From the NCBI GenBank assembly GCA_000004985.1, contig GG738931.1: DNA of 64,000 nt. One strand, given 5' to 3'. This stretch comes from Naegleria gruberi. Lineage: Eukaryota. Below, piece after piece: positions 12,954 to 61,083 of the stretch. A model generated the notes under the pieces. That model searched no databases and had not been told where the DNA came from. It saw only the letters and a list, made by a program, of their open reading frames with translations. The translations under genes and the position numbers were made by a program. Within the stretch, counting starts at the first letter, position 1. Every line of letters begins with the position of its first letter.

Positions 12954-13505
12954 CTTTTTTCGGGAGTGTGAGGAGGAAATTAGTGTGTAGTTTTTGTTTT
13001 GATCAAAAAAAGTTTATGCACGAGCAAGGCTTTCTAAACTTTTGTGATTTTTTTTTTAAGTTGTAAAAATTCAAATCGTTGGCGCAAATCTTTTTAAATC
13101 AGCGCCGTAATCAAGAGCTTAAAAAACAAGTTTGTTGTGCAGAAGAAAATTCGAGTTGAAAAATTTCTTGAATGTGAAAGAGATCAATTTTGAAAGTCTT
13201 TCCGAGGTAATTGATTGAATGTGGTGGAACGAGAATGAGATGACGGATTACAATGAGTGATGGCAATGTTCAGTGGAAGTTCGAAGCTGGTTGTTCGAAT
13301 TTCTGCTCGGAATGGAAATTTTGATTGGAAGTTGTTTCGATTTGATTGCTTTGAATATTTGAAGCTGGTGGTTTGAATATTGAGGTGTTATTGTATTATT
13401 TGTGAATGTTCTTTATTTAACAGTTTACAATTAACAAACCGTAGTCTTTGATTTATTGTAAAGTATTTCAAAAAACTAACTGATTTTTGAGATCTTTGAA
13501 AAAAA

Positions 13506-14491
13506 ATGTTTTCTGAACTTTCAGCAGTTGGCAAAATCATTCAGCAAGATCTTGTTGATGTTCAACAACATCATCACAAGCATAAACTTCTATTAGAAAC
13601 CTTACGAAAACCAATTCATGACACAAAGAGTGAACAAGGAAAATTGCAATTCAACAGTTTACTGAGTGAGAAGAATTTATATTTGAAATTTATGGAACGA
13701 TCCGAGAGAATTGATGAAATTAAAATCATCATCGGAACATCGGAACATGATGAAAAAAGTAAAATTAATCATCATCACATTCATCATCATCATCATGATG
13801 AGGAAAATAATGATCATCACTTCTTCCGAATGGCAAATATTGAAAAAGTTTCAGTTTTGGAGGATAAAATTCCAAAAACAAGTGATTATGAACCGTTATC
13901 TTGGGCTTGTTTTGGGAAATGCAAAAAATCAAGAATTGACTTTTTGAGTAGGATTACAAATCAAGAGGTTTTTCAAGCTATGAGATTGGAACAGGAATTT
14001 ATGGGTGAAAATGTGTTTATTGGATTTTCGTAAGTAGATATTTGAGAAAATTGAGGAAATTAATTGAAAATGAAAGTGATTTTGGAGTTGATGATTCACA
14101 AGAGTTGGAACAGAGCAAGAATTTGTTGCATATTTGTTACAAGTCACATGTTCATCATGGCTTTTTATTGGTTATTGATACAGTGGACGTTTCAGAAAAT
14201 TATTTATTGAATGAATTACCTTTGTGGGTGAAGGATTTAAGAAGTGTCATATCAGATTCCGTTCCAATCGTTCTGATTGGCAATAATGCTGATAAGAGAG
14301 ACGCCTTATTATCAACTCAACATAAATTGGAAGATAGACTTCCTTTGAGTACAGAACAGGGAGAGAAACTAGCTGAAAAGTTGGGCTGTTTCACATATAT
14401 AGAAATGGAAAAGGAATTGTCAATGGATAGTTTGAGACAATTACTTGTAAAAATTCATATCATTCATCAAGATTTGACAGTTCACAAATAA
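13506..14491 (+). CDS. Ras-superfamily-like protein with degenerate nucleotide-binding motifs (candidate pseudoGTPase), 2 exons, His-rich insert
   Basis: The second ORF segment HHGFLLVIDTVDVSENYLL...VPIVLIGNNADKRD aligns to the Ras switch II to G4 region, but NKxD is NNAD. No P-loop (GxxxxGKS/T) is present in exon 1. The segments are in different frames and are joined by a short GTAAGT intron. Confidence 0.5.
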
Positions 14492-14534
14492 ATAACTAGT
14501 TCAATAATTAATTATTCAAAAAAGAATTGCTTTA

Positions 14535-15590
14535 TTAAACAGTATCCATTCCTTCTTCGACTGGAGATTTTGGAGTTTTAACACTTGATGCTCTTCTTTT
14601 AGTGGCTACATTCAAATCAACAGCTCGATCTAATTGAGCATTAGAACCAGCTTCTGCACCAACTTCAATGGTTCTTTCCTTTGTGGCCTCATCAATCTTT
14701 GACATTTGAGGTCTATGAATGGTGCTTGGTTTTCTTTGTCTAGCTTGTTTGGCTCTATTCAAATTCAAGTGAACAACAACCTTATTTTCTTCTGTTGTGA
14801 CAGGATCTGAGGAGGAGGTATTTTCTGATTGAGCAGTAGTGGTGGTATCTGTTACAATAATTGGAGGAGTTGCTACAGAGAGAGGAGTGGTATTTTTGGA
14901 GTTGTCAATTGGTGTTTTTGGAGAGCTGAGAATAATGGTTGGTGTTGAAGTGACATTTTGTGCTTGTGGAGTAGTGACACTATCTGCTTGAACTCTTGGT
15001 GGAATAATGAGTGGAGTAGAAGAGGACCCTCCCATATCATCACTCTTTCTCTTAGCAATTGGTGTATTTGGTGTATGTTCAGGAAGTTTGTACGAAGCAG
15101 GTGGTGTGAAAGTTCCTGAAGAAACTGGCTTTGTAAATACAGATCTTGATCTCAAATGAGCTTTTGATGAAGATTCTTCACTATTATCAACTGGAAGCTT
15201 TTTTGATGAAGTAACAAATAATCCAGGTTGATTCTTTCCAATATCATCAACATTCTTGTCTTCCTCTGCAACTGGCGAAACCATAGACGAAACTTTTTTG
15301 TGTGGCATTCCTCCAGGTGGTTTCAATCCCATAATTGGTGGACCACCAGAATTTTCAGTAGATGCCAATACAGTAACATCATTACACCAGCCACCTTTGA
15401 TTTTACTTGTTCTACAGTTTGGTGAGAATGAAATTTCCAAATTTGGATACTTCTTTTTGAGTGTTTGAGTAAATGAAATATATTCCCTCACTAGTAATGT
15501 AAGAGATTTGATTTTTGGATTATTAAACTTGATCTGGATATGATACGGAGTGCTGAGAATGTTAAATTCAGTAATTTCTGTAAATTTCAA
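14535..15590 (-). CDS. Ser/Thr/Pro-rich hypothetical protein. The ORF lacks an in-frame ATG at its 5' end, so the start is unresolved.
   Basis: Long ORF with a structured N-terminal ~100 aa, then a low-complexity S/T/P-rich tail. The first codon in the track is an alternative TTG. Confidence 0.45.
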   Translation of the reverse strand: MKFTEITEFNILSTPYHIQIKFNNPKIKSLTLLVREYISFTQTLKKKYPNLEISFSPNCRTSKIKGGWCNDVTVLASTENSGGPPIMGLKPPGGMPHKKVSSMVSPVAEEDKNVDDIGKNQPGLFVTSSKKLPVDNSEESSSKAHLRSRSVFTKPVSSGTFTPPASYKLPEHTPNTPIAKRKSDDMGGSSSTPLIIPPRVQADSVTTPQAQNVTSTPTIILSSPKTPIDNSKNTTPLSVATPPIIVTDTTTTAQSENTSSSDPVTTEENKVVVHLNLNRAKQARQRKPSTIHRPQMSKIDEATKERTIEVGAEAGSNAQLDRAVDLNVATKRRASSVKTPKSPVEEGMDTV

Positions 15591-15710
15591 CTCGTGAGTC
15601 GAGTATTGAATAGTTTGTTTTTGTAAAGATATTTTACAATCGAAATCTAATCATTCCAAATCATTTTTGTATAAATATTGTATAATATTGTATAAATTCT
15701 TTACAAAGAA

Positions 15711-16277
15711 TTACTTACAATCTTGACTTTCTACAATCAACACATTAAAATCAACAATTGATTTGCCCAACATTTGAGAAACTATTCCTTTTGGTGTAGA
15801 AGAACCAGTTCCTGCACTGTTTTGTTTCTCCTCGGTTGGTGTTGCAGATTCGTCAAGTTTCGGCATCTTTCCTTCCAAATATTTCTTATTCTTTTCATCT
15901 AGAGAAACCTTTTCCAATGGTTTAGATTGATGAATTAAATACAACTCCTTAATTAAATTATAAACCGAGGAAGCATATTCCATACTTTTACATTTCAAAT
16001 CATGTTCAGTTTTAGAATCGTCTAATTTAATCGAAACTTTCTTCTTTACACAATTTAAACTTTGAATTTGTTTGTATTCTAAAGCAACTTTAGGTTTCTT
16101 ACAAAGAATCCTATCTTTACAAATGTAAAGTGTTCCTTTAGAAAGAATTGATCCTTTAACATCATATTCGGCAATGATGATATCATCTACGGAGAATGAC
16201 TTTCGAATAACAGAGTCGAAAGCATCGGGTTCTAAATGGTCGGCAGCAGAAACGTTCGATTGACGAAACTTTCTCAT
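15711..16277 (-). CDS. Small PH/GRAM-like domain protein (hypothetical)
   Basis: 188-aa ORF with an ATG start. KGTLYICKDRILCKKPK...IQSLNCVKKKVSIKL has a PH-like beta-sandwich pattern. The family call is weak. Confidence 0.45.
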   Translation of the reverse strand: MRKFRQSNVSAADHLEPDAFDSVIRKSFSVDDIIIAEYDVKGSILSKGTLYICKDRILCKKPKVALEYKQIQSLNCVKKKVSIKLDDSKTEHDLKCKSMEYASSVYNLIKELYLIHQSKPLEKVSLDEKNKKYLEGKMPKLDESATPTEEKQNSAGTGSSTPKGIVSQMLGKSIVDFNVLIVESQDCK

Positions 16278-16592
16278 TTCTTCTTTGATTTTTTTTTAAT
16301 AATTGATGACATGCGAATTTAATTACAGTTGCAAAGATATTCAAGAGCTGTCAACCATCATCTATTGACAAGCGAATCATAACAAGTAGGATCTAACTTT
16401 CAGCTTTAGTATTTCATTATCCACAACCACAAATAACATGTTCCAAATAATAATAAAAATCATAATTTTGCAAATAATTTCAAAAACTTGATCGTTGCTT
16501 TTCCCGCTCAAAAAAACAATTAAAAATTAAAATCAAAATTTTTTATATAAAAAAAATACAGAAAATGGTGTAGAGGCTTTTTTTCTCTGCAA

Positions 16593-17870
16593 TTATTGGT
16601 CGGAGGCTGTGCTTGTTGGTTGAACATTGGCAGCAGCTTGTTGACCAGAGTTTGGATAGGACCCTTGTTGTGGATAGTAGTTATATGGATAGGTTGAGGC
16701 GCCACCTTGAGGATAACCTTGTTGTGAAGGATAGCCATAACCTTGTTGTTGTGGGTATCCGTATCCTTGTTGTGAAGGATAACCTTGTTGTGGGTATTGT
16801 TGTTGTTGAGGATAGCTACCACCTTGGGAAGGATATTGCTGACCATAGTTATATGGATAGGTAGAACCTTGTTGTGGATATTGTTGTTGTTGGTTATAGT
16901 ATGGATAAGAACCTCCTTGTTGAGTTGGATATTGTTGTTGTTGTGCAGGATAGGTAGAACCTTGAGGATAACCTTGTTGAGTTGGATATTGTTGTTGTTG
17001 GGTTGGATACTGTTGTTGTGCAGGATAGTTTGAACCTTGTGGGTATCCTTGTTGCTGAGTGGCTGGATATTGAGTTGGATATTGTTGTTGTGAAGGGTAA
17101 CTTGAACTTGGATAGTATTGTTGTTGTGGATATTGTTGTTGATTTGGATACTGTTGTTGTTGTTGACCATATTGAGGAGCAGACAAGAATTGTTGTTGAC
17201 TTGGTTGACCTGGTTGACCTGGTTGTTGACCTTGTTGTGGCTGTTGACCTGGTTGACCTGGTTGTCCTCCTTGTTGTTGTTGGCCATTGTTATTATTGTT
17301 ATTTGATTCTTGGTAATTTCCTCTAAAGCTAGCAAGGGCTGCTTCAATTTGTGAGGATGTGGATTGATACTTCTTCCAATCCTTAGCTTGCAAATCAGTG
17401 ATAAGTTCAGTGGAAAGTGGAACAAGTTTCTCCTTAACAATCTTGAAATCTTCTGGTTGACCTTCAAAACCACCCTTTTCTTCATTTTGCAATTGCATAA
17501 TATTGGATTGAATGGTTCTGGAGGCGCTGTCAATCAAACTACAATCTTTGAATCCATTATCACCCCAACAAAAGCTTCCAAAACTATTAACCATATTCAA
17601 TTGCATTTTAATGTTACTGACTGCACTGGATACTCTTGATTTTGGAGTATTTTGTTGTTGTTGTTGTTGTTGGCCTTGACCTTGACCTTGACCTTGTTGT
17701 GGTTGTTGCCCTGGCATTTGTTGTTGAGGATAGCCAGCTCCTGGATATTGACCAGGTTGCTGTTGTTGGAGTGGATTTGTTTGGAATGGTCTTCCATTTA
17801 CGACTTGGTATTGTGCCACTACTAGTAATGAAATATTTAGTAGCAAAACTGTTAGAACTATTAGTTTCAT
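16593..17870 (-). CDS. Secreted Q/P/Y/G-rich low-complexity (prion-like) repeat protein
   Basis: Signal peptide [20 protein letters not shown], a non-repetitive ~110-aa central domain, and extensive [13 protein letters not shown]-type repeats encoded by CAA/CAG/CCA runs. Confidence 0.6.
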
Positions 17871-17998
17871 TTTCTTTTTGATGATTCAATAGGATGATCA
17901 GGAGAATCCACTATTAAGATCGCAACTTTCTTTAACCACTTTTGGAAAGACAATTGATAAAAAACTTTTTTATTTTTGATATATTGTACATTTGGAGA

Positions 17999-20900
17999 CT
18001 AATGGCATGTCTTGCTATTTACTAAAAAAGTTGCTTGTTTTGCTAGATAGCTTTGGTCAAGGTTCTTGAAAGGAATTAGTGCTTTACATTCACTATCTTC
18101 TAATTTGGAAAGAGCCTGAATAACCTTATGTACATGGGAATTTGTGAGTCTGTCACCACTTCCTGGGAATTCATAATCTGATTTGAAGAGAGTTGCCAAT
18201 CTCAATAACATTTCATTTTCCTCTTTCGTATTTCTCTCGTTCAGTATTTGCTTCCATTTCTGATAAGTTACATTTTGCATTGGCTCCTTTTTCAATAATT
18301 TAGCTTCTGTTGTTGCTGCTATGGAGAGTAAATCGTCAATGTGAATGACGAATTTATCTAGATTTGCCAACTCGAATATGAAATAGTTTGGATTTTCGTG
18401 AAGATCTGTTACGAATGCATTCTCATTCTGTGTCAACTGTACAATGACTCTTGAAATAATATCTACTGGGACAATGTTTAGAGTTCTGTTCGTCTTTGGG
18501 AAGCAATTCATTTCAAAACATCCCATGACTAATCTATTGACCCAATCTATTAAATTAGAAACTCCATTGACAGTATCACTTCCAATCATACCAGGTCTGA
18601 AAATGGCTCCTGGATATCCCAATAATCTTGCTTGTTGAATATATTGTTCGGCAACAAACTTGGTGCTACTGTATCCATTAGCTCTTTCAATAATTGGTTT
18701 GAGTTGCCTCATGACTTGATCCATGTGATTGTTAATTAAATCCGTAATATCTTTCTTATTGCTAATTCCAGATGTACTGGTTGGTATTCCAAAGAGTGAT
18801 AATCCAGATTGCAATACTCCAACTGTAGAGACGAAAACTATTGGGGCTAAAGTGGAATCTCCACTTTGAATATTCAATTTAGATGATAAGCAAGCCAATT
18901 TCAATAATGAAAGAGTAGATCCAGTATTTGAGGAAAATAATTGAGGATATGACATGACAGAGTTGACATACGCTCCGTTGTGATAAATAATATCAATATT
19001 TTCTGCCAGTTTCTTGAATTCTTCCTCAGTGAGTCCTAAATTATCATCTCCTAAATTACCCTTGACAACTGAAATTCTCTTTTCATACTTGTCATTCCAA
19101 AGTTTGAATTCCACAAGGTTTTCTTTCACTCTCATGAAAACGTCATCTTGATGATTCTTTTCTCTGACTATACAATAGACTTTGACATTTTCTTCAGCTT
19201 TCTCTAATGCTTCCAATAAATCTCTCAATATAAATGCTCCTAGGAATCCTGTTGAACCTGTCAATAGAATACCCTTCTTCAAATCGGCTATCTTTTTAAA
19301 TTGCGTATTTCCTCTTGATGTGAGGTCTATAATGTCATTCAACACATCTTCAGGAAGGAGAATATCCTTCTTCCAATCATGGGATGAATTGACTGTGGCA
19401 ACATCATCATGTTGGTTTTTGGTGACAAAATCTGAAACTCTACTCACTACGCTATCCACATTTCTGTCAGTTTGAGAAAATATCAGCGAGAGTGGAACAT
19501 CAATGTTATACTTTTGCTTCATAATACCAGAAAATTTAACAGCGTGAAGACTGTCAATAATTTTCATATTTCCATCAGATTCAGCTGAACCTGTTTGAGA
19601 ATTTAACAATAATTCACGAATCAAATCTTCATCCAATTTCCTCTTGTTAATAGACTCTAGGTGCTCATAAAGAGCTTCCAACTCTTCCTTATACTTCATT
19701 TCGCATCCAAATCTCTTAACTTTCATTGAAGAGGTAAGGAGATCGTTCTTCTCACTAAATGACTCAAATTCAATAATAAAGTCCTTTGGCACTTCGTATG
19801 GAAGAAGAGAGCAGTTCACAGATACTTTCTCAATTTCCTCACACAAAACCTTTTTAACCTTTTCATTGGTTTTCAGCAAGTCCTTCTCTGAATCACTCAA
19901 GAGCTCTTCACTTGATGAGTTGATGAGCCCTTCCTTGATTGCAAATTGTTTCAAAACCGTTTGATTAGGTACAATTACACCTACAAGGTAGCTTTTCGAC
20001 ACATTTCCATAAATGAAAGCTTGGAAGATGAATTTTGAGGTAGTCAGAGCATCTTCAATCTTTGCAGGTGCAATAAATTCTCCTTGACTCAATTTGAAAA
20101 TATTCTTGAGTCTGTCAATAATTCTAATGTGTCTTGGACCTAGCTCCTCAACAATATCATTAGTATGCAACCATCCTTCCTCATCCAAAGCGTTTTTCGT
20201 AAGTTCTTCATTCTTGTAATATCCAATGAACATGGTTTTTGTTTTAACACAAAGTTCTCCTCTTGGATAAGGTTTGTCATTTGTGAAATAGTTCATGTCA
20301 GGTACGTCAACCAACTTGTACTCAACAGAGCTATGAAGTCTGTTATCATTCATGATACCTCCTGCTTCTGACATTCCAAAACCATCTGAAACGAAGCAAT
20401 TAAAACATTTTCCAAGAAATTCTCTAACTTGTGGGCTTGAAGAGGCTCCTCCAATAATTATTGATTGTAAGCGACCACCCAACATGTTTCTAAAATCTTT
20501 CATTACTCTTTCTTCAAGTTCTCTCTCCGTTTTAGGTCTATCCTCATTTTGATTCGAAATACCTGAAAGCCAACTTGTCTTTTCCAATTCGTACACTTTT
20601 TTATACTCATCATAGAGTACATTATAAAGTCTTGGTGTTGAGGCAATGACAGTAGGTTTGACCTTTTGAATATCCTCAAAGATGTGAACAAAATCTCTGG
20701 TAAATATTCCCACTCTAGCACCATCACACATGGCCAAAAGGGTGTGTTTTCTGTCACTCATGTGAGCAAGAGGACAGAATGAAAATTGTACTTTTGGATT
20801 TTCAGCTCTGAAACCATGCATTTCTCTTCTCAGAGATTTGTCACTAACCATTATGCCCTTCGGCTGACCTGTCGATCCACTCGTGAAAACTAACGATAGA

Positions 20901-21973
20901 AGATCCTCATCTTTTTCTAGTCTATTCAAAATAAAGTCCTGGTGTTCCACATCAATCCACATCTTATTTGGATTATACTTGTTTTTTGGAGTGACGAGGA
21001 TAGTCTCGTGATTTTCAAAGTGTTTTGGATATCTTTTTTTCTTAGGTTTGTTCTTTTCGTTCAAGTATTCACATAAGATTGATTTTCCCTTGTCAATAAT
21101 CTCGTTCATTGGCAGAATTTCAATTTCTTGTTTACCACTGTTTGTTGTGAATTTACTCTTGGATTTTCCTTCATTATCATCCATTACTACAATATATTTT
21201 ACAAAGTCCAATTGTTTTGTAATGCTGATGAAAAAATCGAGCATTTCTAAAGTACAAACGACAACCTGACTATCGGTCAGTTCAACAATATGTTTCGTCT
21301 CATCAAAAGTTTGGGCAAAGTGAATAGGAGCAGCCACAAATCCCTTGAAGAAACAAGCATAATCACACAAGTACCAATATAAATTATTCTTTCCACAAAT
21401 GGATACAAATTGTCTCTTATTTTCCTCCCTCAAAGGTTTTAAAATTTCATCCAGTCCAACAGCAATACAACAAACCAAGTGGAATACTTGTTCATATCGA
21501 AGCCAATGATAAGGTCCGTCATCCTCTTTCAATATTCCAAAGCAAGGATTCATTGAATTTTCAATAAAACTCCGAAACAGTGTACTATTGACACGATCGG
21601 CCTCTGATCTTTGTTTGATTTCATGATAGTGATATTTTGTTGGTACAAAATATTCAAGATCCTCACAAAATGTTTCCAACCAGAGTTCTCTTTCCTTTTC
21701 TTCTGGTGTTTTTTCCTCATTGTCAACTTGTTGATGATTAGGAGATGCATTCTTCCTTCTCTTCTTACATTTATCCCAACACCAATCGTAACACTTCTCG
21801 CACAAATCAGTTCCCTTGTCATTGGTATTGGTATATCGGATTGTGTTTTCAATAACACCCAAACACATATTACAAATCCATCGATATGAAACCGATGTGA
21901 CGGTGAAGTTGGTTGGTTTTTCCTCCACTTGCAGTTTTCCACGAGAGAATAGGGAGGTGATCTTGTTGAGCAT
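17999..21973 (-). CDS. NRPS-like adenylation-carrier-reductase enzyme (carboxylic acid reductase / Lys2-like; AMP-binding + PP-binding + NAD_binding_4), with an N-terminal Cys-rich zinc-finger-like segment
   Basis: AMP-binding core LVFTSGSTGQPKG and GFGMSEAGG. Carrier-protein Ser in IDSLHAVKFSG. Reductase Rossmann motif ILLTGSTGFLGAFIL. N-terminal CNMCLG...CEKCYDWCWDKC. Confidence 0.8.
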   Translation of the reverse strand: MLNKITSLFSRGKLQVEEKPTNFTVTSVSYRWICNMCLGVIENTIRYTNTNDKGTDLCEKCYDWCWDKCKKRRKNASPNHQQVDNEEKTPEEKERELWLETFCEDLEYFVPTKYHYHEIKQRSEADRVNSTLFRSFIENSMNPCFGILKEDDGPYHWLRYEQVFHLVCCIAVGLDEILKPLREENKRQFVSICGKNNLYWYLCDYACFFKGFVAAPIHFAQTFDETKHIVELTDSQVVVCTLEMLDFFISITKQLDFVKYIVVMDDNEGKSKSKFTTNSGKQEIEILPMNEIIDKGKSILCEYLNEKNKPKKKRYPKHFENHETILVTPKNKYNPNKMWIDVEHQDFILNRLEKDEDLLSLVFTSGSTGQPKGIMVSDKSLRREMHGFRAENPKVQFSFCPLAHMSDRKHTLLAMCDGARVGIFTRDFVHIFEDIQKVKPTVIASTPRLYNVLYDEYKKVYELEKTSWLSGISNQNEDRPKTERELEERVMKDFRNMLGGRLQSIIIGGASSSPQVREFLGKCFNCFVSDGFGMSEAGGIMNDNRLHSSVEYKLVDVPDMNYFTNDKPYPRGELCVKTKTMFIGYYKNEELTKNALDEEGWLHTNDIVEELGPRHIRIIDRLKNIFKLSQGEFIAPAKIEDALTTSKFIFQAFIYGNVSKSYLVGVIVPNQTVLKQFAIKEGLINSSSEELLSDSEKDLLKTNEKVKKVLCEEIEKVSVNCSLLPYEVPKDFIIEFESFSEKNDLLTSSMKVKRFGCEMKYKEELEALYEHLESINKRKLDEDLIRELLLNSQTGSAESDGNMKIIDSLHAVKFSGIMKQKYNIDVPLSLIFSQTDRNVDSVVSRVSDFVTKNQHDDVATVNSSHDWKKDILLPEDVLNDIIDLTSRGNTQFKKIADLKKGILLTGSTGFLGAFILRDLLEALEKAEENVKVYCIVREKNHQDDVFMRVKENLVEFKLWNDKYEKRISVVKGNLGDDNLGLTEEEFKKLAENIDIIYHNGAYVNSVMSYPQLFSSNTGSTLSLLKLACLSSKLNIQSGDSTLAPIVFVSTVGVLQSGLSLFGIPTSTSGISNKKDITDLINNHMDQVMRQLKPIIERANGYSSTKFVAEQYIQQARLLGYPGAIFRPGMIGSDTVNGVSNLIDWVNRLVMGCFEMNCFPKTNRTLNIVPVDIISRVIVQLTQNENAFVTDLHENPNYFIFELANLDKFVIHIDDLLSIAATTEAKLLKKEPMQNVTYQKWKQILNERNTKEENEMLLRLATLFKSDYEFPGSGDRLTNSHVHKVIQALSKLEDSECKALIPFKNLDQSYLAKQATFLVNSKTCH

Positions 21974-22110
21974 TTTTTTATGAAGATGAAAGTTTGTGAT
22001 TGTTGATGGCTCAAGGATGAACCAGATAATGTGTTATTGTGTTAATTTTGTGATTAGTATTGCCATCATGTAATACTAATATTATTGAGTTTAAATTTGA
22101 GTTGAATAAA

Positions 22111-23616
22111 TTAAAGAATCCACATGAAGAGAATCAAACAAGTGGAGACAACAAGTGTTGTCCAAAAGATACTCGACAATGAGTACAGATACTTCTTAAA
22201 GGTGTGATTCAATCCATATACTTCCTGAATGAATGTGCTTACGGTTGTGAGGGAGCCACAAAATCCAACCGAGAATGCATCAATCCAATAAACAGCAACA
22301 CCAGAGGTGAAACCTGAAACGTAGGCAGTACCTTGTAAAATAACCAAGATTAGAGAGCCAATGATATTGACAGCAAGTGTGAAAATTGGCATTTGGAATC
22401 TTTCAACAGCTTTAAATGTAATATTTAGCTTGCAAATTAAATATCTCAATAAACAGCCAAGAGGAGCAACGAGGAGAGTGAGGCAAAGACTTTGATCCAA
22501 TGATTTTGAAACGTTCATAGCACCAAGCAGAACAATAAAAACTGAAATGACAGCCATCAAAACTACAAACAAATCAACAGCCATTTTGATTGCTGTTCTT
22601 GATTTCCATTTGGCATTTCTAATTTGTTGATACTCTTCCAGTAATTTTCTTTTGAATAATTCTCCATTACTCTCGGCAATATATTTAATTTCACCTTCTT
22701 CCAAGAGAATCTTTCTCTGATCCTCATTTGGAATTGGTTCTACAATATCTACATCTTCAGCCAATCCAGAAGCAACACTCGAAGATGCAATTGAATTAAC
22801 ACTATTTTGACTTGTCATTGTGACCTGTTGTGGCGCCTTTGCATTTCCAAATTTCTTCCTCAAAACAGGAATCACAAAACTCAAAATTGCATTTGTAATA
22901 TCCTTCGCAATTACAAATGCAAAATAACAAGTTGTAAAACCAACTACTTGCTTACTCACAAACGACAAGACATCTCCCTTCATTAAACTAATTGCAGCAT
23001 TCACTTGCCAACTTGAAAATGTTGTAATGCATCCACACATCCCAGTCGATAGTCCAGTATATATCCTCTTCTCAAACGACAATGTTCCATGAAAAACTCT
23101 ATGCAGAAACAACTTGACCATTCTCTTCTTTGATTCCTCCATTCCTTCCAAAGATATTGCTGATGAATTATTACTCTTCACCATAATAGGAGTATTACTT
23201 TCACTACTACTACCATTATTATTATTATTAGTAACCTTATTCTTTTCCAATTCAACTAACAAGGCCTTCTCCTTCTCCTTCAACTCTTCCAAAGGCTTTT
23301 TAATAAAGTGCAAATGAATGACCATTAAAACTCCCATGATGAAGCAACCCACAATATTTGCATACAAATCGGAGAAGAATAAATCATCAATGGATTGAAC
23401 GATATTACCATTGGATGATGTCGATGGATTCATAATATTGTTATTATTGCTATTATTATTGGAGGAGGAGAGGGAAGGCTTGTAGAGAGTGTCGGAGAGA
23501 AGAATTCGAATTAAAACACCAATCATGCAGAATACGATGAGGTAGGCAATGTAGAGTAAATGTTTGGATAAATTGATGGCAAATTTGAAATTTTCTTTGA
23601 GTAGTTGCATTGTCAT
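22111..23616 (-). CDS. Fluoride export protein (eukaryotic two-domain CrcB/FEX family)
   Basis: Two CrcB-type motifs: GMCGCITTFSSW and GFCGSLTTVSTF (compare bacterial GFCGGLTTFSTF). Multiple TM segments. A poly-N/S insert lies between the domains. Confidence 0.8.
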   Translation of the reverse strand: MTMQLLKENFKFAINLSKHLLYIAYLIVFCMIGVLIRILLSDTLYKPSLSSSNNNSNNNNIMNPSTSSNGNIVQSIDDLFFSDLYANIVGCFIMGVLMVIHLHFIKKPLEELKEKEKALLVELEKNKVTNNNNNGSSSESNTPIMVKSNNSSAISLEGMEESKKRMVKLFLHRVFHGTLSFEKRIYTGLSTGMCGCITTFSSWQVNAAISLMKGDVLSFVSKQVVGFTTCYFAFVIAKDITNAILSFVIPVLRKKFGNAKAPQQVTMTSQNSVNSIASSSVASGLAEDVDIVEPIPNEDQRKILLEEGEIKYIAESNGELFKRKLLEEYQQIRNAKWKSRTAIKMAVDLFVVLMAVISVFIVLLGAMNVSKSLDQSLCLTLLVAPLGCLLRYLICKLNITFKAVERFQMPIFTLAVNIIGSLILVILQGTAYVSGFTSGVAVYWIDAFSVGFCGSLTTVSTFIQEVYGLNHTFKKYLYSLSSIFWTTLVVSTCLILFMWIL

Positions 23617-23879
23617 TTTTTTTAAATTTTGTGTTAATTAATTAACTTAAATATTAAATACACAATATTATTAAATATTGTAAACAGTCAAGTCATGAAA
23701 TCTGCATTTATTTTTCCTTAATAAACTTTGTAATCAAACATTAACATCTCTCTTTGCTCTTCCAAGTTCAACACGAACATCACCGAACCAAGTTCTTAAT
23801 TGACCAAAAAAACAACTTTCAATACTTACTGTATCGAGAACTTCCTCAAACACATCAAACATAACACACAAGAAAAAAA

Positions 23880-25007
23880 ATGGCTCCAAAACGCATCACA
23901 CAATTCTCATCACTTCCCTACGAAATTTATCAACACATTTTATCGTTCGGAGTGAGTGATTCCGAATTATTGCTGAAAAAGAATTTTTCGAGTGGGAGTA
24001 GTGAAATTCAATCCTGTGTACGATATGTGGCTAATTTTCAATCATTGAATAGGAAGATTGCTAGTATGCCAGAGATGGAACGATATTTTGATAGATTTTG
24101 GTGGAATGTTTGGGAGATTTGGTTTGGAATTAATCCATCTTTGGAGAAGGAGTTTAGTTTATTGAGGGAGGAAATGATTCTAAAGAGAGAATTGAAGAGG
24201 AAAGTGCTGATGGCTGCATTTATAAAGTTTCACATTTGGAGAAGAATTAAAAATTTGAATGGAATTGATGAAACTAAAGTGGTAATGATTGGAAAGGGAG
24301 GAGTAGGTAAGAATTTAATAATTTTCTGTTAATAGGTTAATTATTTTGAAATAGGAAAGTCTGCAATGACAGTGAAATATATACAAGATTTCTTTATTGA
24401 ACAATATGATCCAACAATAGAGGGTGTTTATAGAAAACAATTGTTGGTTGATGGTTTTCCTACATTATTTGAAGTTTTGGACTCGGCTGAACATGAATAC
24501 AGTGTAAGTTCTTTAGAATAATGCCATTCTAAACTAATTAAATTTATCAAGTCCGCGAGAGATCATCATATGAGATATGGAGAGTGTTTCGTTCTTGTTT
24601 GTGATTTGGCAGATATTAATTCAGTGGAAGAAGCCGAACCACTTGTAGAACAATTAGTAAGAGTTAAGGACTTTGAGGAAAATAGCTTTCCAGTAGTATT
24701 TGCCTTAAATAAGGTCGATTTACTGAATGAAACAGATCGACCAATCACCATTGAGAAATTTACTAACCAAATTGCTACCCTCATTAAACAAACTCAATTG
24801 ACCAATACTTTCATTATTGAAACAAGTGCCAAGACGGGAGAAAACATTACTCGAGTATATGAAGAATGTGCAAGACTAAAGAGATATGGATCAGTTGATA
24901 ATCTAACACTCCTGAAAGAGGTTATTCAACACGATTCTGCATTCATTGAAACTTGTAAAAAGCAGAGAAAGTTGATGAAACAATCGAAAAATTGTTCTGT
25001 AATGTAA
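23880..25007 (+). CDS. Divergent Ras-like GTPase with an N-terminal F-box-like extension; 3 exons (introns ~24307..24353 and ~24506..24553)
   Basis: Exon 1 ends with the P-loop VVMIGKGGVGK. Exon 2 (KSAMTVKYIQDFFIEQYDPTIEGVYRKQLLVDGFPTLFEVLDSAEHEYS) aligns to Ras switch I/II, but the DTAGQ motif is DSAEH. Exon 3 (FVLVCD...VVFALNKVDL) carries the NKxD motif. Both introns start GTAAG. Confidence 0.6.
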
Positions 25008-25053: not shown

Positions 25054-26412
25054 TTATGAGATTTCAATCATGAATAGGTATTGCAAAGAAGAAATGGTAC
25101 GCTCCTCACTTACTATTTCCCTTTCAACTAGGGTGGGATTTTGAGATTTTGTTCCAATTGACCTAATCACAAAATCATACCATTTAAACGGTTTGAAATT
25201 GGATTTCTTTTGAGATGTTTGTTTGACATTCAGCTCATTGAAAATATCAAAATCTTTTACCATTTTCACGAAAGAAAATTCTCCTTTTTGCAATCTTCTA
25301 AACATTCTTTCATCAACATGGCTCAATAAAGTACCAATTCGATTCTTATACTCCACAACTATGGAATTTTTCTCAAAAATCTCCAATTGATTCGTATAAT
25401 TAACTTGATGCCATGTTGCATCAGCAAGTCCAAATCTTTTTGCAATTTTCAAAATATTCCAAAATATAAATTGTAAAATATTCATCTTTTTCTTTTCATT
25501 TCCAATAAGAGTTAAAACATTTGATGGAATTTGCAATTTTTCATTCATTGGAATGAAATAATTTCCAAATAATAATTCGATTCTTTCCCAATTTGGAAAA
25601 TTGTTATTCTTAGGATCGAATATTGCATAATGGAATAGATCTCCTCTTTTAATCCAAGATAAATCAACTCCCAATGTTAGTGAGCAGTTCATTAAATAAT
25701 TATTGGCCTTTCTAATAGAATTAATCTTTCTCTTTTTCGGATACAACAATCCACACATAGAATCATACGTATAACTAAAGCAATTATCTGTTCTCTTTAC
25801 CAAAACTTGATTATTGTAAATGGAATTCAAAACTAAATGATACGGAACTTGAATTTGAAGATTTTTCGAACAAAACAAGAGATGAATTTGTGAGATTCCA
25901 ATAGATTTCAAATTTTCTGCATAATTATTCAAAGGTTCTTGTAATCTGTGCAATCCAATCAGAGACAGAGTGATGCAGTATTTCTGAGTCAATTTTGAAA
26001 TTGTTAATTTTCGAATATAATTATCCGAAATTATTTCTGCTTTAGTATTCAACTTTGCATGATTAGTTTCAATGACTAACCATTCCAAATTATCAAGATA
26101 ATAAAATCTTTTCAACATTTCAATAGCAGATTTCGAATTTTCCAAATACGAATTTGTTCGAAACTTGATCCAATCCTCCTTTTCCACAAGTTTAAAGTCA
26201 TCAAATTCTACCTCCTTTTTAACTAAATCAGTTCCGAAATAACCATATACTGTTGGTATTTTCGAATTACGAAACCTTTCCACTAACACTTGTTTCTGCA
26301 TTCTTTCAATCTTTTCGAAACAAACCGAATTTATTCTCTTAAATTTCCGCTGATAGAAATAGGGAAGAAATGACACAATCTCACACAATAAATCCTCATT
26401 GATTTGACGCAT
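25054..26412 (-). CDS. Hypothetical protein with an F-box-like N-terminus (an alternative upstream ATG at 26466 is possible)
   Basis: Continuous ORF. The second ATG has an A-run context. INEDLLCEIVSFLPYFYQRKFKRINSVCFEKI resembles an F-box. Confidence 0.45.
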   Translation of the reverse strand: MRQINEDLLCEIVSFLPYFYQRKFKRINSVCFEKIERMQKQVLVERFRNSKIPTVYGYFGTDLVKKEVEFDDFKLVEKEDWIKFRTNSYLENSKSAIEMLKRFYYLDNLEWLVIETNHAKLNTKAEIISDNYIRKLTISKLTQKYCITLSLIGLHRLQEPLNNYAENLKSIGISQIHLLFCSKNLQIQVPYHLVLNSIYNNQVLVKRTDNCFSYTYDSMCGLLYPKKRKINSIRKANNYLMNCSLTLGVDLSWIKRGDLFHYAIFDPKNNNFPNWERIELLFGNYFIPMNEKLQIPSNVLTLIGNEKKKMNILQFIFWNILKIAKRFGLADATWHQVNYTNQLEIFEKNSIVVEYKNRIGTLLSHVDERMFRRLQKGEFSFVKMVKDFDIFNELNVKQTSQKKSNFKPFKWYDFVIRSIGTKSQNPTLVEREIVSEERTISSLQYLFMIEIS

Positions 26413-26645
26413 TTTTTTTTTATTTATTGTTAAATTTTGATCAATTCTGAAATGCTTGAATTTCATTGTAAAACAATTACAAAAGATTTTTTCACTGTAT
26501 TCTTGATCATGATTGGATAATCAAGTTCAGTGAATTTCCGAATACAATTACTAGGGAATAAATAATTCGATCTTTCATTAAGCTTCACTAAATTTCCTTA
26601 TTTACAAGTAGAGGAAATATAGTTAATAAGGAAAGTAATTTTTAT

Positions 26646-33892: not shown

Positions 33893-34275
33893 TCATGATG
33901 AAAGATCTAAGGTAACATAATTATTTCCTATTTCCCTGGTAGTAAGAAGAAAGAGTAGGGGTTATCTGATGAATTTGTATATGAAAGTAGTAACAAGCTT
34001 GATATTCATTACTACTGATGTCTATCAACAAAATTTCACATTGCTGATGATGTTTACATATCANNNNNNNNNNNNNNNNNNNNNNNNNNNNNNNNNNNNN
34101 NNNNNNNNNNNNNCTATCTGAAGTTCATGATGAAAGATCTAAGGTAACATAATTATTTCCTAGGTTATCTGATGAATTTGTATATGAAAGTAGTAACAAG
34201 CTTGATGATATTCATTACTACTGATGTCTATCAACAAAATTTCACAATTGATGATGTTTACATATCAATTAAACG
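33893..34275. repeat. Direct tandem duplication (~170-230 bp per copy) flanking an assembly gap: copy A 33893..34063, copy B 34114..34275, ~90% identical with a 30-bp indel
   Basis: The strings catgatgaaagatctaaggtaacataattatttcct and ggttatctgatgaatttgtatatgaaagtagtaacaagcttgat...gatgtttacatatca occur on both sides of the N-run. Confidence 0.7.
34064..34113. other. Assembly gap (50 N)
   Basis: Run of N. Confidence 1.
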
Positions 34276-34971
34276 AAAAGTGAAATAATTGTTAAAATTC
34301 TCATAATTTCCTACAGAATTTGAAACAAATAAATGATAAAAAGCAAAGCAATTCACTAATTGATGAGCCATTATAACAGTAGTAAGTGAATTAGTTTTCC
34401 TCACCACATAAATCCACAACAATCCCATAATTAGTGGACCACCCACCAAGTTGACTGCGCCTCCTTCATATTGCAAATCAAACCATAAAAACCAAACATG
34501 GTTCAATGCAAACAGCACTGTACTAAGTATCAATTTAGTAGTTGACCTATCATGAATGATGTCATCAATCCAAACTCCTCTCCAATAAATTTCCTCGATA
34601 AATCCATTCACAAGTCCAATACAAAGAGCAAGAATAAACAAACTAATAGAAAATTCAAATTCTCTACATGATGGAATGAATGCAGCAAAGAAAACAAGTA
34701 AAGTTGGAATAAAAGCACTCAAATAAATCATGAAATTTCCTTCACTGCATTTTCCCAATATTTTCATAGAAATATTATTGTATATTGATGATGAATTAAA
34801 CATTAACATCATGATCATCATTAATAGAAACCAATAAACGATCATTCCGAGTGTAAAACTAGAAAGTTTGCTGGTGAGCAAGCTGATGAGGTAAAATAAT
34901 AATCCCACCAATAAAAATGTAAAAATTTGATGAGAAAGATGATGAATTGATTGGTTTTTTAATGGTGTCAT
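34258..34971 (-). CDS. CPBP-family intramembrane metalloprotease (CAAX protease / Abi-like)
   Basis: Multiple TM helices plus the family motifs EEIYWR (EExxxR), FALNH (FxxxH) and HQLVN (HxxxN). Confidence 0.7.
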   Translation of the reverse strand: MTPLKNQSIHHLSHQIFTFLLVGLLFYLISLLTSKLSSFTLGMIVYWFLLMMIMMLMFNSSSIYNNISMKILGKCSEGNFMIYLSAFIPTLLVFFAAFIPSCREFEFSISLFILALCIGLVNGFIEEIYWRGVWIDDIIHDRSTTKLILSTVLFALNHVWFLWFDLQYEGGAVNLVGGPLIMGLLWIYVVRKTNSLTTVIMAHQLVNCFAFYHLFVSNSVGNYENFNNYFTFRLIDM

Positions 34972-60252: not shown

Positions 60253-61083
60253 ATGCTATGGGTAGAAATGGAGGTGGACATCCCACCAAAACAACAAGCA
60301 AAAAGAACACTCAAAGCCTTCGCTAAAATAATTCAGGTAAGGTGCCAAATAAGAAGACAATTTGACACAAGGCCAAAACAAATTGTTGGAGACAATATAG
60401 TGTCAGCAGCTAGATCAACGATCCTTGTTTATGTTGAGACAAACTCTAGAACAAAACTGGAAAATTTTTTGTTGGCTACTTACCACGCCTTCAAAAGATA
60501 TTCCCTGTTGTTTATTGCTGATACTCAAAACCAACATATAAGACAATCTGTTATACAGGCTCCTAGAAACCCTCCCACTAGTGGTAACGAAGACAGCAGT
60601 GACGATACCACATCTATCAAGAGCATTTCACTACCTGTACAAACAAATAATTCGCCCAGTAACAGTACTGATACTAAATGGGCTTTATTAGAAGCCTATT
60701 TAATTGAGTTGAAAAGAGTTCCTTCTGGCTCGGAATCAGGCAATATTTCTTCAAGTTACAACTTAAATCCAACAGAAGAAATTATTCATGATACCCATAA
60801 AAACAAACCAAAAGTTACATCACCACCAAAACCAATCAAACATTCTCCAACCCTACAAAGAGCTGTGATACATTTCAAATGGANNNNNNNNNNNNNNNNN
60901 NNNNNNNNNNNNNNNNNNNNNNNNNNNNNNNNNTTGGAGAATGTTTTGGATGCATTGATTAGATTTAATGGAGATGATGAAGCCAAGATTGGATATGCTT
61001 TTGAAAAACTAAGACTAAAAGATGACAGAACCGCAAAATCCATTACAAGATGGTTGTTTTCAACCTTATTGACTAAAGATTAG
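60253..61083 (+). CDS. Hypothetical protein; the CDS is interrupted by an assembly gap
   Basis: ORF with an A-rich start context. Contains a run of X from the N-gap. Confidence 0.4.
   Translation: MLWVEMEVDIPPKQQAKRTLKAFAKIIQVRCQIRRQFDTRPKQIVGDNIVSAARSTILVYVETNSRTKLENFLLATYHAFKRYSLLFIADTQNQHIRQSVIQAPRNPPTSGNEDSSDDTTSIKSISLPVQTNNSPSNSTDTKWALLEAYLIELKRVPSGSESGNISSSYNLNPTEEIIHDTHKNKPKVTSPPKPIKHSPTLQRAVIHFKWXXXXXXXXXXXXXXXXXLENVLDALIRFNGDDEAKIGYAFEKLRLKDDRTAKSITRWLFSTLLTKD
60884..60933. other. Assembly gap (50 N)
   Basis: Run of N. Confidence 1.

What the first reader, a model, noticed from the sequence alone, without database searches (positions are those of the whole stretch)
13506..25007. 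Two Ras-like genes 10 kb apart with degenerate nucleotide-binding motifs (candidate pseudoGTPases), one with an F-box-like N-terminus
Seen in sequence: gene 13506..14491 has the Ras fold signature from switch II to G4 but no P-loop, NKxD changed to NNAD, and a His-rich insert. Gene 23880..25007 keeps the P-loop GKGGVGK and NKVD, but its DxxGQ motif is DSAEH: the Gly and the catalytic Gln are both lost. It is preceded by an F-box-like segment, LPYEIYQHILSF. Established knowledge: Gly60 and Gln61 (Ras numbering) are required for GTP hydrolysis and the conformational switch; the NKxD Lys/Asp confer guanine specificity. Inference: these are non-hydrolysing or non-binding Ras-like scaffolds, possibly substrate adaptors of SCF complexes, from a lineage-specific expansion.
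Basis: partly seen in the sequence, partly recalled or inferred. Interest (0 to 1): 0.5.

Follow-up and report, generated by a model that had tools for sequence, protein, structure and literature searches.

The report
Two degenerate small GTPases in Naegleria
The window is Naegleria gruberi DNA, and the two flagged genes are already catalogued members of its >350-gene small-GTPase repertoire: a lipid-anchored Ras with a broken switch II and an F-box remnant, and an unrelated Rho-derived protein that has lost nearly all its GTP-binding motifs. They are curious, but ordinary for this organism.

Summary
The sequence observations hold. Gene 2 (23880-25007, two 48-nt GTAAG..AG introns) translates to 343 aa, identical to RefSeq XP_002669123.1 of Naegleria gruberi NEG-M. 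It has an intact P-loop, switch I Thr, NKVD and SAK, plus a polybasic-CSVM (CAAX) tail. Its switch II reads DSAEH: Gly60 is deleted and Gln61 is absent. Gene 1 (13506-14491, one 47-nt intron, 312 aa) has no P-loop, NNAD for NKxD, MEK for SAK, a His-rich insert and no CAAX.

- Gene 1 is Rho-derived, not Ras: its PDB sequence and fold hits are overwhelmingly Rho family and it has a Rho-insert-length segment. Herman et al. 2021 list it under 'Rac'. The two genes are therefore not one local expansion.
- Gene 2 should still bind GTP, so it is a candidate class ii/iii pseudoGTPase. Gene 1 is a candidate class i.
- The F-box claim is weak. Only helix 1 (LPxEIxxHIL) is detectable and there is no Pfam hit. 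A Willaertia homologue carries a near-threshold F-box-like region.

F-box-GTPase fusions and birth-and-death evolution are already published for Naegleria, though not for Ras-family members. A ~300-bp hyperdivergent, mosaic 'switch cassette' (DSAEH versus DTAGP copies) is the most interesting by-product. Interest is low to moderate.

The parts
13506..14029 (+). Gene 1 exon 1 (aa 1-175): orphan, His-rich N-terminal half with only G1-G3 remnants
   Evidence: Open frame from ATG 13506. GTAAGT donor at 14030. The ORF is 97% identical in metagenome contig L002. An exhaustive profile search of 1.84 billion proteins found no relatives outside N. gruberi.
14030..14076 (+). Gene 1 intron (47 nt, GTAAGT..AG)
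   Evidence: Removing it joins the frames. JGI model XP_002668440.1 uses the same join.
14077..14491 (+). Gene 1 exon 2 (aa 175-312 plus stop): Rho-type beta4-alpha5 half of a G domain, with a Rho-insert-length segment, NNAD and MEK, and no CAAX
   Evidence: Pfam Ras 29.1 bits. PDB phmmer top hits are TC10, Rho1 and RhoA. Foldseek top hits are RhoA, RhoD, Rnd3 and Rac1. Rac1 blastp covers aa 236-284 with one gap.
13767..13820 (+). Gene 1 His-rich insert NHHHIHHHHHDEENNDHH (aa 88-105)
   Evidence: It carries an in-frame 3-nt indel relative to L002.
13719..13763 (+). Gene 1 candidate beta1/P-loop remnant IKIIIGTSEHDEKSK (one of three competing mappings)
   Evidence: The L-INS-i alignment with Rho and Ras sequences places it opposite KCVVVGDGAVGKT. 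Other aligners choose SAVGKII (13521-13541) or FGKCKKSR instead.
14282..14293 (+). Gene 1 G4 remnant NNAD (NKxD with Lys changed to Asn)
23880..24306 (+). Gene 2 exon 1 (aa 1-143): helical N-terminal extension, then beta1 and the first part of the P-loop
   Evidence: AF2 predicts an all-helical region at pLDDT 55.
23913..23948 (+). F-box helix-1-like motif LPYEIYQHILSF (aa 12-23)
   Evidence: Columns are invariant across the Naegleria and Willaertia homologues. hhalign gives 75.7% over 15 columns against a classical F-box profile and 91.5% over 20 columns against Naegleria F-boxes. There is no Pfam hit.
24307..24354 (+). Gene 2 intron 1 (48 nt), splitting the P-loop codons GKGGVG|KS
24355..24503 (+). 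Gene 2 exon 2 (aa 143-192): alpha1, switch I (YDPTIEGVYRK), beta2-beta3 and degenerate switch II
24480..24494 (+). Degenerate G3 motif DSAEH (Gly60 codon deleted, no Gln61)
   Evidence: Codon alignment with the DTAGP copy on L001 shows a 3-nt deletion. The same motif occurs in XP_002669149.1.
24504..24551 (+). Gene 2 intron 2 (48 nt, GTAAGT..AG)
24552..25007 (+). Gene 2 exon 3 (aa 193-343 plus stop): alpha2 to alpha5, NKVD, ETSAK, polybasic KKQRKLMKQSK and CAAX CSVM
24307..24611 (+). Hyperdivergent 'switch cassette' block: 83-92% DNA identity to L001, against 96-99% in the flanks
   Evidence: The site patterns are mosaic.

Best explanation
The window is Naegleria gruberi NEG-M. The finding covers two unrelated members of its greatly expanded Ras superfamily.

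Gene 2 (XP_002669123.1) is a Ras-family protein with three parts.
- Residues 1-130 form a helical extension whose first helix is an F-box remnant.
- The G domain keeps G1, Thr35, Asp57, G4 and G5. It has lost Gly60 by a one-codon deletion and carries Glu/His where Gly60/Gln61 should be.
- The C-terminus is a polybasic stretch followed by CSVM.

The most likely mechanism for gene 2 is inferred, not shown. The protein is farnesylated and membrane-anchored like K-Ras4B. It binds GTP-Mg. It cannot make the Gly60-gamma-phosphate contact or position a catalytic Gln. It would therefore be a slow or non-hydrolysing Ras with a non-canonical switch II, in the Rnd-like or RGK-like pseudoGTPase class. It would present a largely intact effector loop at the membrane. 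Any link to Skp1/SCF through the N-terminal remnant is possible but unproven; I put it at about 0.3.

Gene 1 is a Rho/Rac-derived protein. Its C-terminal half, including the Rho insert, is recognisable. G1, G2, G3 and G5 are gone, G4 is NNAD, and the CAAX box is lost. It is most likely a soluble, nucleotide-free class i pseudoGTPase, or a young gene on its way to decay.
For: Identity. The gene 2 model is identical to XP_002669123.1. Gene 1 is 99% identical to XP_002668440.1.

Family assignment.
- Gene 2: Pfam Ras 94.2 bits; best PDB matches Rap2A and KRas at 2e-30.
- Gene 1: the best PDB sequence hits are almost all Rho family, and the best one (TC10) aligns across the insert region.
- Gene 1: Foldseek hits of the AF2 model are almost all RhoA, RhoD, Rnd3 and Rac1, even though the alignment supplied to AF2 contained only Ras-family sequences.
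- Gene 1: Rac1 and a curated N. gruberi Rac align at 5e-6 and 6e-8.
- Gene 1: it is listed as 'Rac' in Herman et al. Table S8.

Ongoing constraint.
- Gene 2 has an intact ORF and canonical introns in four or five copies or strains.
- The last 40 residues, including the CAAX box, are identical between the window copy and L001 and nearly so in the other close copies.
- dN/dS is 0.33 for aa 216-343.
- Gene 1 exon 1 against L002 shows 3 synonymous and 3 non-synonymous changes and only in-frame indels.

F-box ancestry. The LPxEIxxHIL columns are invariant from Naegleria to Willaertia. The Willaertia homologue scores 21.7 bits against Pfam F-box-like (cut-off 24.3) and aligns over 35 columns at 86% probability by hhalign.

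Precedents. RGK proteins have DXWE in place of DXXG (PMC4081519). The pseudoGTPase classes are defined in PMC5593906.
Against: - No expression, prenylation, nucleotide-binding or hydrolysis data could be obtained.
- dN/dS across G1-switch II of gene 2 is 0.87, which is compatible with relaxed constraint.
- The window copy also carries D38G in the effector loop.
- The AF2 model of gene 1 is poor overall (mean pLDDT 56.6) and poor in the N-terminal half. It was made on the 257-aa XP_002668440.1 variant that lacks 55 residues.
- The F-box similarity of the window protein on its own is only 38.5% probability over 16 columns.
- A loose version of the helix-1 motif occurs five times in the six-frame translation of the window.
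Confidence: 0.6

Rival explanations
1. SCF adaptor. The N-terminus of gene 2 is a working F-box that binds Skp1. The protein would then be a membrane-anchored F-box protein whose Ras domain recruits RBD/RA-type partners for ubiquitination. With switch II broken, that recruitment would be constitutive.
For: - The helix-1 motif is invariant across the family.
- The Willaertia homologue is F-box-like through helix 3.
- The F-box is the commonest extra domain on Naegleria GTPases, and the authors proposed GTPase-dependent ubiquitination.
- Euglenozoan TbFRP also combines an F-box with a GTPase.
Against: - The window protein has no Pfam F-box hit at E<=10.
- Only 15-20 columns align, against 43 for genuine Naegleria F-boxes.
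- A family profile finds no F-box protein in the PDB.
- The AF2 model has pLDDT 55 and gives no fold hits.
- Herman et al. list no extra domain for this gene.
- Gene 1 has no F-box-like segment at all.
Confidence: 0.3
2. Decaying duplicates. Both genes are by-products of birth-and-death evolution with little or no function. Gene 2 would be a recently disabled copy whose DTAGP-type sister does the work. Gene 1 would be an eroding Rac duplicate.
For: - dN/dS is 0.87 in the switch block and 0.62 overall for gene 2.
- The window copy has an effector-loop D38G singleton.
- Gene 1 has lost almost all G motifs and its CAAX box, and its exon 1 has no relatives outside N. gruberi.
- The other gene 1 copy differs by a 165-nt in-frame deletion between ATTCAT repeats.
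- Herman et al. describe birth-and-death evolution and pseudogenes in these families.
Against: - No frameshift, stop codon or splice-site lesion occurs in any copy.
- Two DSAEH copies that differ at 7% of residues both keep intact ORFs.
- The CAAX tail is conserved and dN/dS is 0.33 in the C-terminal half.
- All indels are in frame.
- Neither gene is flagged as a pseudogene in the curated Table S8.
Confidence: 0.25
3. Gene 2 is still a cycling switch that uses non-canonical catalysis. The catalytic residue would come from a dedicated GAP, as with Rap/RapGAP. Alternatively, low intrinsic activity would suffice, as in RGK proteins.
For: - All nucleotide-binding motifs are intact.
- Gln61 is already absent (Pro or Ile) in every Naegleria paralogue while the rest stays conserved.
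- The RGK family hydrolyses GTP despite a DXWE G3 motif.
- That Rap proteins lack Gln61 is established knowledge, not tested here.
Against: Deleting Gly60 shortens switch II by one residue. It also removes the backbone amide that senses the gamma-phosphate. No known cycling Ras-family member lacks that residue (established knowledge, not tested here).
Confidence: 0.25

Closest known systems
Naegleria F-box-GTPase fusions and divergent lineage-specific GTPase paralogues (Herman et al. 2021, BMC Biol, PMC8296547, Suppl. Material 4 and Table S8)
   Same: Same organism and the same phenomenon. The superfamily is expanded and evolves by birth and death. Members carry N-terminal extensions that are 'in at least some' cases identifiable as F-box, and one subgroup has a CaaX motif. 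Both genes are listed in Table S8, as 'Ras' and 'Rac'.
   Different: [quoted passage not shown] It lists no extra domain for XP_002669123.1. It does not comment on the degenerate G motifs of either gene.
RGK family (Rad, Gem/Kir, Rem): G3 motif DXWE
   Same: A Ras-related G domain whose G3 motif has Glu where Gly60 should be (D-x-x-E) and whose switch behaviour is non-canonical. It is classed as a pseudoGTPase that retains nucleotide binding.
   Different: Gene 2 has no Trp in the motif. Its switch I is Ras-like and conserved, whereas RGK switch I is not. Gene 2 has a CAAX box instead of the RGK calmodulin/14-3-3 tail. There is no phylogenetic relationship, since RGK proteins are metazoan.
Rnd/RhoE and other class ii pseudoGTPases
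   Same: They bind GTP but do not hydrolyse it because of substitutions around switch II, and they are farnesylated (plus established knowledge).
   Different: Rnd proteins keep Gly60 and belong to the Rho family. Gene 2 belongs to the Ras family and has lost Gly60.
Class i pseudoGTPases (p190RhoGAP pG1/pG2, CENP-M, dynein LIC)
   Same: Like these, gene 1 has a G-domain-like fold with nearly all G motifs degraded, so no nucleotide binding is expected.
   Different: Those are ancient, conserved domains with known partners. Gene 1 is a young orphan restricted to N. gruberi, and only its C-terminal half is modelled with any confidence.
RhoBTB and TbFRP (FYVE-F-box-GTPase of Euglenozoa, PMC3593210)
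   Same: Both fuse a small-GTPase domain to a cullin-RING adaptor module: BTB for Cul3, F-box for SCF. TbFRP comes from the sister lineage within Discoba.
   Different: Gene 2 has no BTB or FYVE domain. Its GTPase is Ras-type, whereas TbFRP's is Rab18-like. Its F-box is only a remnant. The TbFRP authors found no N. gruberi orthologue.

Membership tests
Ras family (Pfam PF00071), gene 2 | Profile score above the gathering threshold over the whole G domain | tested here: met
   94.2 bits against a cut-off of 21.6, covering aa 133-300 and profile positions 1-158 of 162. Best PDB matches are Rap2A and KRas at 2e-30.
Canonical switching GTPase, gene 2 | G1 GxxxxGK[ST], G2 Thr35, G4 NKxD, G5 SAK | tested here: met
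   GKGGVGKS, YDPTIEG, NKVD and ETSAK are all present.
Canonical switching GTPase, gene 2 | G3 DxxGQ (Gly60 and Gln61) | tested here: not met
   The motif reads DSAEH. There is a 3-nt deletion relative to DTAGPEE in the sister copy.
Prenylated Ras-like proteins, gene 2 | C-terminal CAAX box with an upstream polybasic region | tested here: met
   The C-terminus reads KKQRKLMKQSKNCSVM. It is conserved in all copies and as CIVM in Willaertia. Actual prenylation cannot be tested here.
F-box (Pfam PF00646 / PF12937), gene 2 | Profile match over the ~45-residue three-helix F-box above threshold | tested here: not met
   No hit at E<=10. hhalign aligns only 15-20 columns, against 43 columns in the positive control. 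The Willaertia homologue scores 21.7 bits, below the 24.3 cut-off.
F-box, gene 2 | Binding to Skp1 | not testable with these tools
   No complex prediction or experiment was available.
Rho family, gene 1 | Rho insert (~13 residues between G4 and G5) and best similarity to Rho/Rac/Cdc42 | tested here: met
   The NNAD-to-YIE spacing matches Rac1 (one gap) and is 13 residues longer than in HRas. TC10 aligns across the insert region with a 1-residue and a 2-residue gap. The Foldseek top hits are almost all Rho family.
Rho family, gene 1 | Functional G1-G5 motifs and a C-terminal CAAX box | tested here: not met
   There is no GxxxxGK[ST]. Thr35 is replaced by Leu in the YEPL mapping. G3 is ambiguous or degenerate. 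G4 is NNAD and G5 is MEK. The protein ends DLTVHK.
[quoted passage not shown] | GTPase fold | tested here: inconclusive
For gene 1 the C-terminal half has pLDDT 75-89 with Rho-like fold hits, but the N-terminal half is below 50.
PseudoGTPase | Loss of nucleotide binding or of hydrolysis | not testable with these tools
   This needs biochemistry. Only motif loss is shown here.
RGK family | DXWE G3 motif, divergent switch I, C-terminal calmodulin-binding extension without CAAX | tested here: not met
   Gene 2 has DSAE but no Trp, a conserved Ras-type switch I, and a CAAX box.
TbFRP / RhoBTB | FYVE domain (TbFRP) or tandem BTB domains (RhoBTB) | tested here: not met
   Pfam finds no such domain in either protein.

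The most novel reading that the evidence does not exclude
The ~300-bp block that encodes alpha1, switch I, beta2-beta3 and switch II of gene 2 exists in two deeply diverged forms: DSAEH-type and DTAGP-type. These forms have been shuffled among copies or haplotypes by recombination or gene conversion, and may even be allelic in NEG-M. Under this reading, membrane-anchored GTPases carrying an F-box remnant are rapidly diversifying 'interface' proteins. They could, for example, be decoys or sensors for bacterial effectors that target GTPase switch regions, coupled to ubiquitination.
Probability: 0.1. Interest if true: 0.7.

Novelty: new member of a known kind. Interest (0 to 1): 0.3.

Why it matters
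If confirmed biochemically, gene 2 would be a Ras-family protein in the strict sense that has lost Gly60 yet stays under constraint. That would make it a natural experiment on what a membrane-bound Ras can do without a canonical switch II. It would also extend Naegleria's published F-box-GTPase theme to the Ras family. Gene 1 would add a very young, Rho-derived class i pseudoGTPase. Neither result changes current understanding. Naegleria is already known for more than 350 Ras-superfamily genes, many of them divergent, fused to F-box or BTB domains, or pseudogenised.

Tried and rejected
- Upstream exon for gene 1. I looked for an exon that could restore a P-loop, using a three-frame translation and donor scan of 12954-13545 and a six-frame GxxxxGK[ST] scan of the whole window. 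The only hit, at 26883, is unrelated. A short upstream ORF (13260-13376, MAMFSGSSKLVVRISARNG...) vaguely recalls beta1 but has no usable donor site, so I treated it as chance.
- Homologue searches. The N-terminal family profile against the 5.8-billion-protein index returned only the L001 exon-1 ORF. Against PDB sequences it returned no F-box protein.
- Exhaustive representative search for gene 1. The profile kept only the 174 exon-1 columns, so exon 2 was not searched. The one new hit, P0124, is a tandem-repeat ORF and probably spurious.
I substituted gene 2 exon 1 (pLDDT 55, no fold hits) and the 257-aa XP_002668440.1 for gene 1.
- DNA for the NEG-M paralogues could not be retrieved. The dN/dS values therefore rest on metagenome contigs L001 and L002 only.
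- Neighbouring ORF 25054-26466(-), which contains 'LLCEIVSFLPYFY', as another F-box protein: hhalign gives 6% probability. It is also unrelated to the equally long ORF at 57915-59327.
- Weak tblastn GTPase hits at 42573-43074 and 60313-60456: the first lies in LRR proteins and the second has no Pfam domain.


Full report
ORGANISM AND GENE MODELS

The window is AT-rich (31-36% GC) and carries short GTAAG..AG introns. Gene 2 is assembled from exons 23880-24306, 24355-24503 and 24552-25007. This is the only GT..AG combination that keeps the frame open. It encodes 343 aa that are identical to XP_002669123.1, 'ras family small GTPase', of Naegleria gruberi NEG-M on a 138-kb scaffold.

Gene 1 is assembled from exons 13506-14029 and 14077-14491, with a 47-nt GTAAGT..AG intron, and gives 312 aa. 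Its exon 1/exon 2 join is the same as in the independent JGI model XP_002668440.1, which is 99% identical and sits on an 8.5-kb scaffold. That model lacks 55 residues. The gap corresponds exactly to a 165-nt deletion between ATTCAT direct repeats at 13614 and 13779, and the borders are not GT-AG. The continuous ORF is present at 98% DNA identity in metagenome contig L002.

GENE 2: WHAT THE SEQUENCE SHOWS

Pfam Ras scores 94.2 bits over aa 133-300. The best solved relatives are Rap2A, KRas and HRas at about 2e-30. The motifs, with coordinates and the alignment, are:
- G1: GKGGVGKS, intact and split by intron 1.
- Switch I: YDPTIEGVYRK. Thr35 is present, and D38G is specific to this copy.
- G3: DSAEH.
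- G4: NKVD.
- G5: ETSAK.
- C-terminus: KKQRKLMKQSKNCSVM, a polybasic stretch plus a CAAX box ending in Met.

DSAEH lies inside exon 2, and XP_002669149.1, a 93% paralogue on the same scaffold, shares it. A corrected gene model therefore cannot restore DxxGQ.

Codon alignment with the closest DTAGP-type copy shows 'gat act gct gga cct gaa gaa' against 'gac tcg gct --- gaa cat gaa'. The Gly60 codon is deleted, in a lineage where Gln61 had already been replaced. The residue at that position is Pro in L001 and in the 'unassembled reads' copy of Table S8. It is Ile in XP_002671236.1. The Willaertia magna homologues still have DTAGQ or DTPGQ.

All residues that contact the nucleotide and Mg2+ are retained. 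I therefore infer that GTP binding is kept, while gamma-phosphate sensing by switch II and intrinsic or GAP-assisted hydrolysis are impaired. In the published scheme this is a class ii/iii pseudoGTPase candidate. The closest motif-level precedent is the RGK G3 motif DXWE, which also has Glu in place of Gly60.

GENE 2: THE F-BOX QUESTION

The N-terminal 130 residues give no Pfam hit, even at E<=10.

As a test I built a classical F-box profile from sequences recalled from memory. I validated it against the PDB, where its 46 significant hits are nearly all F-box proteins, many of them not in the seed. As a positive control, the F-boxes of Naegleria Rab-like proteins printed in Herman et al. Table S8 match it at 97.3% probability over 43 columns.

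Results for gene 2 and its relatives:
- The gene 2 family profile (the window protein, the L001 copy, XP_002671236.1 and one Willaertia homologue) matches the classical profile at 75.7% over only 15 columns.
- It matches the Naegleria F-boxes at 91.5% over 20 columns, always FSSLPYEIYQHILSF, which is helix 1.
- The window protein alone gives 38.5% over 16 columns.
- The Willaertia homologue alone gives 86.4% over 35 columns through VNKQFNEL, and 21.7 bits against Pfam F-box-like, below the 24.3 cut-off.
- AF2 on exon 1 is all-helical but low confidence (pLDDT 55) and finds no fold match.
- A loose helix-1 regex occurs five times in the six-frame translation of the window, against 0.5 expected. 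The motif by itself is therefore weak evidence.

The LP-E-I-x-x-H-I-L columns are invariant from Naegleria to Willaertia. My conclusion is that the extension probably descends from an F-box. In the window protein only helix 1 is recognisable, and family membership is not met. Skp1 binding is an open question.

GENE 2: EVOLUTION

Contig L001 is syntenic, with the CrcB gene upstream, and 94.6% identical overall. Identity to the window varies by segment:

| Segment | DNA identity |
|---|---|
| CrcB coding sequence | 98.8% |
| Exon 1 | 95.8% |
| Intron 1 | 91.7% |
| Exon 2 | 84.6% |
| Intron 2 | 82.9% |
| First 60 nt of exon 3 | 88.3% |
| Rest of exon 3 | 96.0% |

The introns in the block are as diverged as the exons. 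The ~300-bp 'switch cassette' (24307-24611) is therefore of older ancestry, not simply fast-evolving protein.

Across four close copies, 27 sites group {window, XP_002669149} against {unassembled-reads copy, L001}. Twenty of these lie in aa 147-201. Five sites in aa 76-127 instead group {window, unassembled} against {XP_002669149, L001}, and no site shows the third pattern. This mosaic indicates recombination or gene conversion near intron 1.

dN/dS against L001 is 0.62 overall, 0.87 for aa 132-215 and 0.33 for aa 216-343. There are no non-synonymous changes in codons 301-330, and the last 40 residues are identical. The gene is constrained at its C-terminal half and membrane anchor. It is relaxed or diversifying on the switch face.

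GENE 1: WHAT THE SEQUENCE SHOWS

Pfam Ras matches only aa 201-285, corresponding to profile positions 72-141. Several independent tests place the protein in the Rho family:
- phmmer against the PDB returns almost only Rho-family chains. TC10 scores 6e-5, followed by Rho1, RhoA and plant Rac proteins. They align over roughly aa 204-296, and the best hit (TC10) runs across the Rho-insert region.
- Rac1 aligns over aa 236-284 with one gap. The NNAD-to-YIE spacing is 13 residues longer than in HRas.
- A curated divergent N. gruberi Rac (ACER01000717) aligns at 6e-8.
- The AF2 model of XP_002668440.1 was built with an alignment containing only Ras-family sequences, yet it retrieves RhoA, RhoD, Rnd3, Rac1 and N. 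fowleri Rac1 by Foldseek at about 4e-4.
- Herman et al. list XP_002668440.1 under 'Rac', next to XP_002669122.1. The latter is probably the window copy, which I infer only from the adjacent accession number.

The N-terminal half cannot be mapped with confidence. Different aligners place the P-loop remnant at SAVGKII (aa 6-12), at IKIIIGTSEHDEKSK (aa 72-86) or at FGKCKKSR (aa ~135). They place switch II either at ITNQEVFQAMR or at DFGVDDSQE. None of these mappings contains GxxxxGK[ST]. The residue corresponding to Thr35 is Leu in the YEPL mapping. G4 is NNAD and G5 is MEK. The protein ends DLTVHK, without a CAAX box.

AF2 confidence is 75-89 for beta4 to alpha5 and below 50 for most of the N-terminal half. 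Exon 1 has no relatives outside N. gruberi among 1.84 billion representative proteins. Against L002 there are 3 synonymous changes, 3 non-synonymous changes and two in-frame indels. These counts are too few to decide on selection, but the ORF is maintained.

Gene 1 is therefore a candidate class i pseudoGTPase, with no nucleotide binding and no lipid anchor. It could equally be a young gene drifting towards loss.

COMPARISON WITH WHAT IS KNOWN

Herman et al. 2021 (PMC8296547; Suppl. [quoted passage not shown] They described birth-and-death evolution with pseudogenes. [quoted passage not shown] They also described one F-box-bearing subgroup with a CaaX motif, and they proposed GTPase-dependent ubiquitination.

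Both genes of this finding are in their table, as 'Ras' and 'Rac'. Neither carries a pseudogene flag, an extra domain, or a listed N. fowleri orthologue. TbFRP of Euglenozoa is another F-box-GTPase in Discoba, but its authors found no N. gruberi orthologue.

What may be new here is modest:
- an F-box-derived N-terminus on a Ras-family clade shared with Willaertia;
- the stepwise loss of Gln61 and then Gly60;
- the mosaic switch cassette;
- the explicit reading of the 'Rac' XP_002668440.1/XP_002669122.1 as a motif-less pseudoGTPase.

VERDICT

- Observation: confirmed.
- Interpretation: partly supported.
- Novelty: new members of a known kind.
- Interest: 0.3.

Noticed in passing
window 24307-24611, compared with L001 2339-2640: A ~300-bp block covering intron 1, exon 2, intron 2 and the start of exon 3 of gene 2 is only 83-92% identical to an otherwise 96-99% identical syntenic contig. 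Amino-acid site patterns among four close copies are mosaic (27 AABB, 5 ABAB, 0 ABBA), which points to gene conversion or recombination of a 'switch cassette'.
   Followed up: partly
window 13614-13784: ATTCAT direct repeats lie at 13614 and 13779. Deleting the 165 nt between them reproduces exactly the shorter N. gruberi model XP_002668440.1. The borders are not GT-AG, so this is either a real in-frame haplotype deletion or a gene-prediction artefact.
   Followed up: partly
window 13260-13376 (+): A short ORF upstream of gene 1 (MAMFSGSSKLVVRISARNGNFDW...) begins like gene 1 (MFS...) and contains a KLVV string that recalls the beta1 strand of Ras/Rho. It has no usable splice donor. It is probably chance, or possibly a relic.
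   Followed up: partly
window 34258-34971 (-): This ORF has a Pfam Rce1-like type II CAAX prenyl endopeptidase domain (5.4e-13). It lies about 10 kb from the CAAX-bearing Ras gene, which is most likely coincidence.
   Followed up: no
window 22111-23616 (-): A 501-aa protein with two CrcB-like (fluoride exporter) stretches sits immediately upstream of gene 2. It is 98.8% identical at the DNA level in L001, which gives the neutral baseline for the comparison.
   Followed up: partly
window 17999-21973 (-): A 1324-aa intronless ORF carries AMP-binding and NAD_binding_4 (male-sterility-type reductase) domains. This is a carboxylic-acid-reductase or fatty-acyl-reductase-like architecture.
   Followed up: no
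window 16593-17870 (-): A 425-aa protein with a signal-peptide-like start is extremely rich in Gln, Pro, Tyr and Gly repeats (QQYP/QQGYP). It has no Pfam match.
   Followed up: no
P0124, compared with gene 1 aa 125-172: The only non-Naegleria hit to gene 1 exon 1 is a 163-aa ORF made of three tandem repeats (…SISWDLFGTCKASQIQSLKRIRHK…) that resembles LSWACFGKCKKSRIDFLSRI. It is probably repeat-inflated chance and remains unexplained.
   Followed up: no
window 42561-43996 (+): Two adjacent ORFs carry leucine-rich repeats (LRR_4 at 8.9e-9). They account for the weak tblastn 'GTPase' hits in that region.
   Followed up: partly
window 6661 (-), inside ORF 4622-7309: A second N-terminal-type motif, KELPYDLGCEILKD, fits the loose F-box helix-1 pattern, so this could be another F-box-like protein. 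It was not examined.
   Followed up: no
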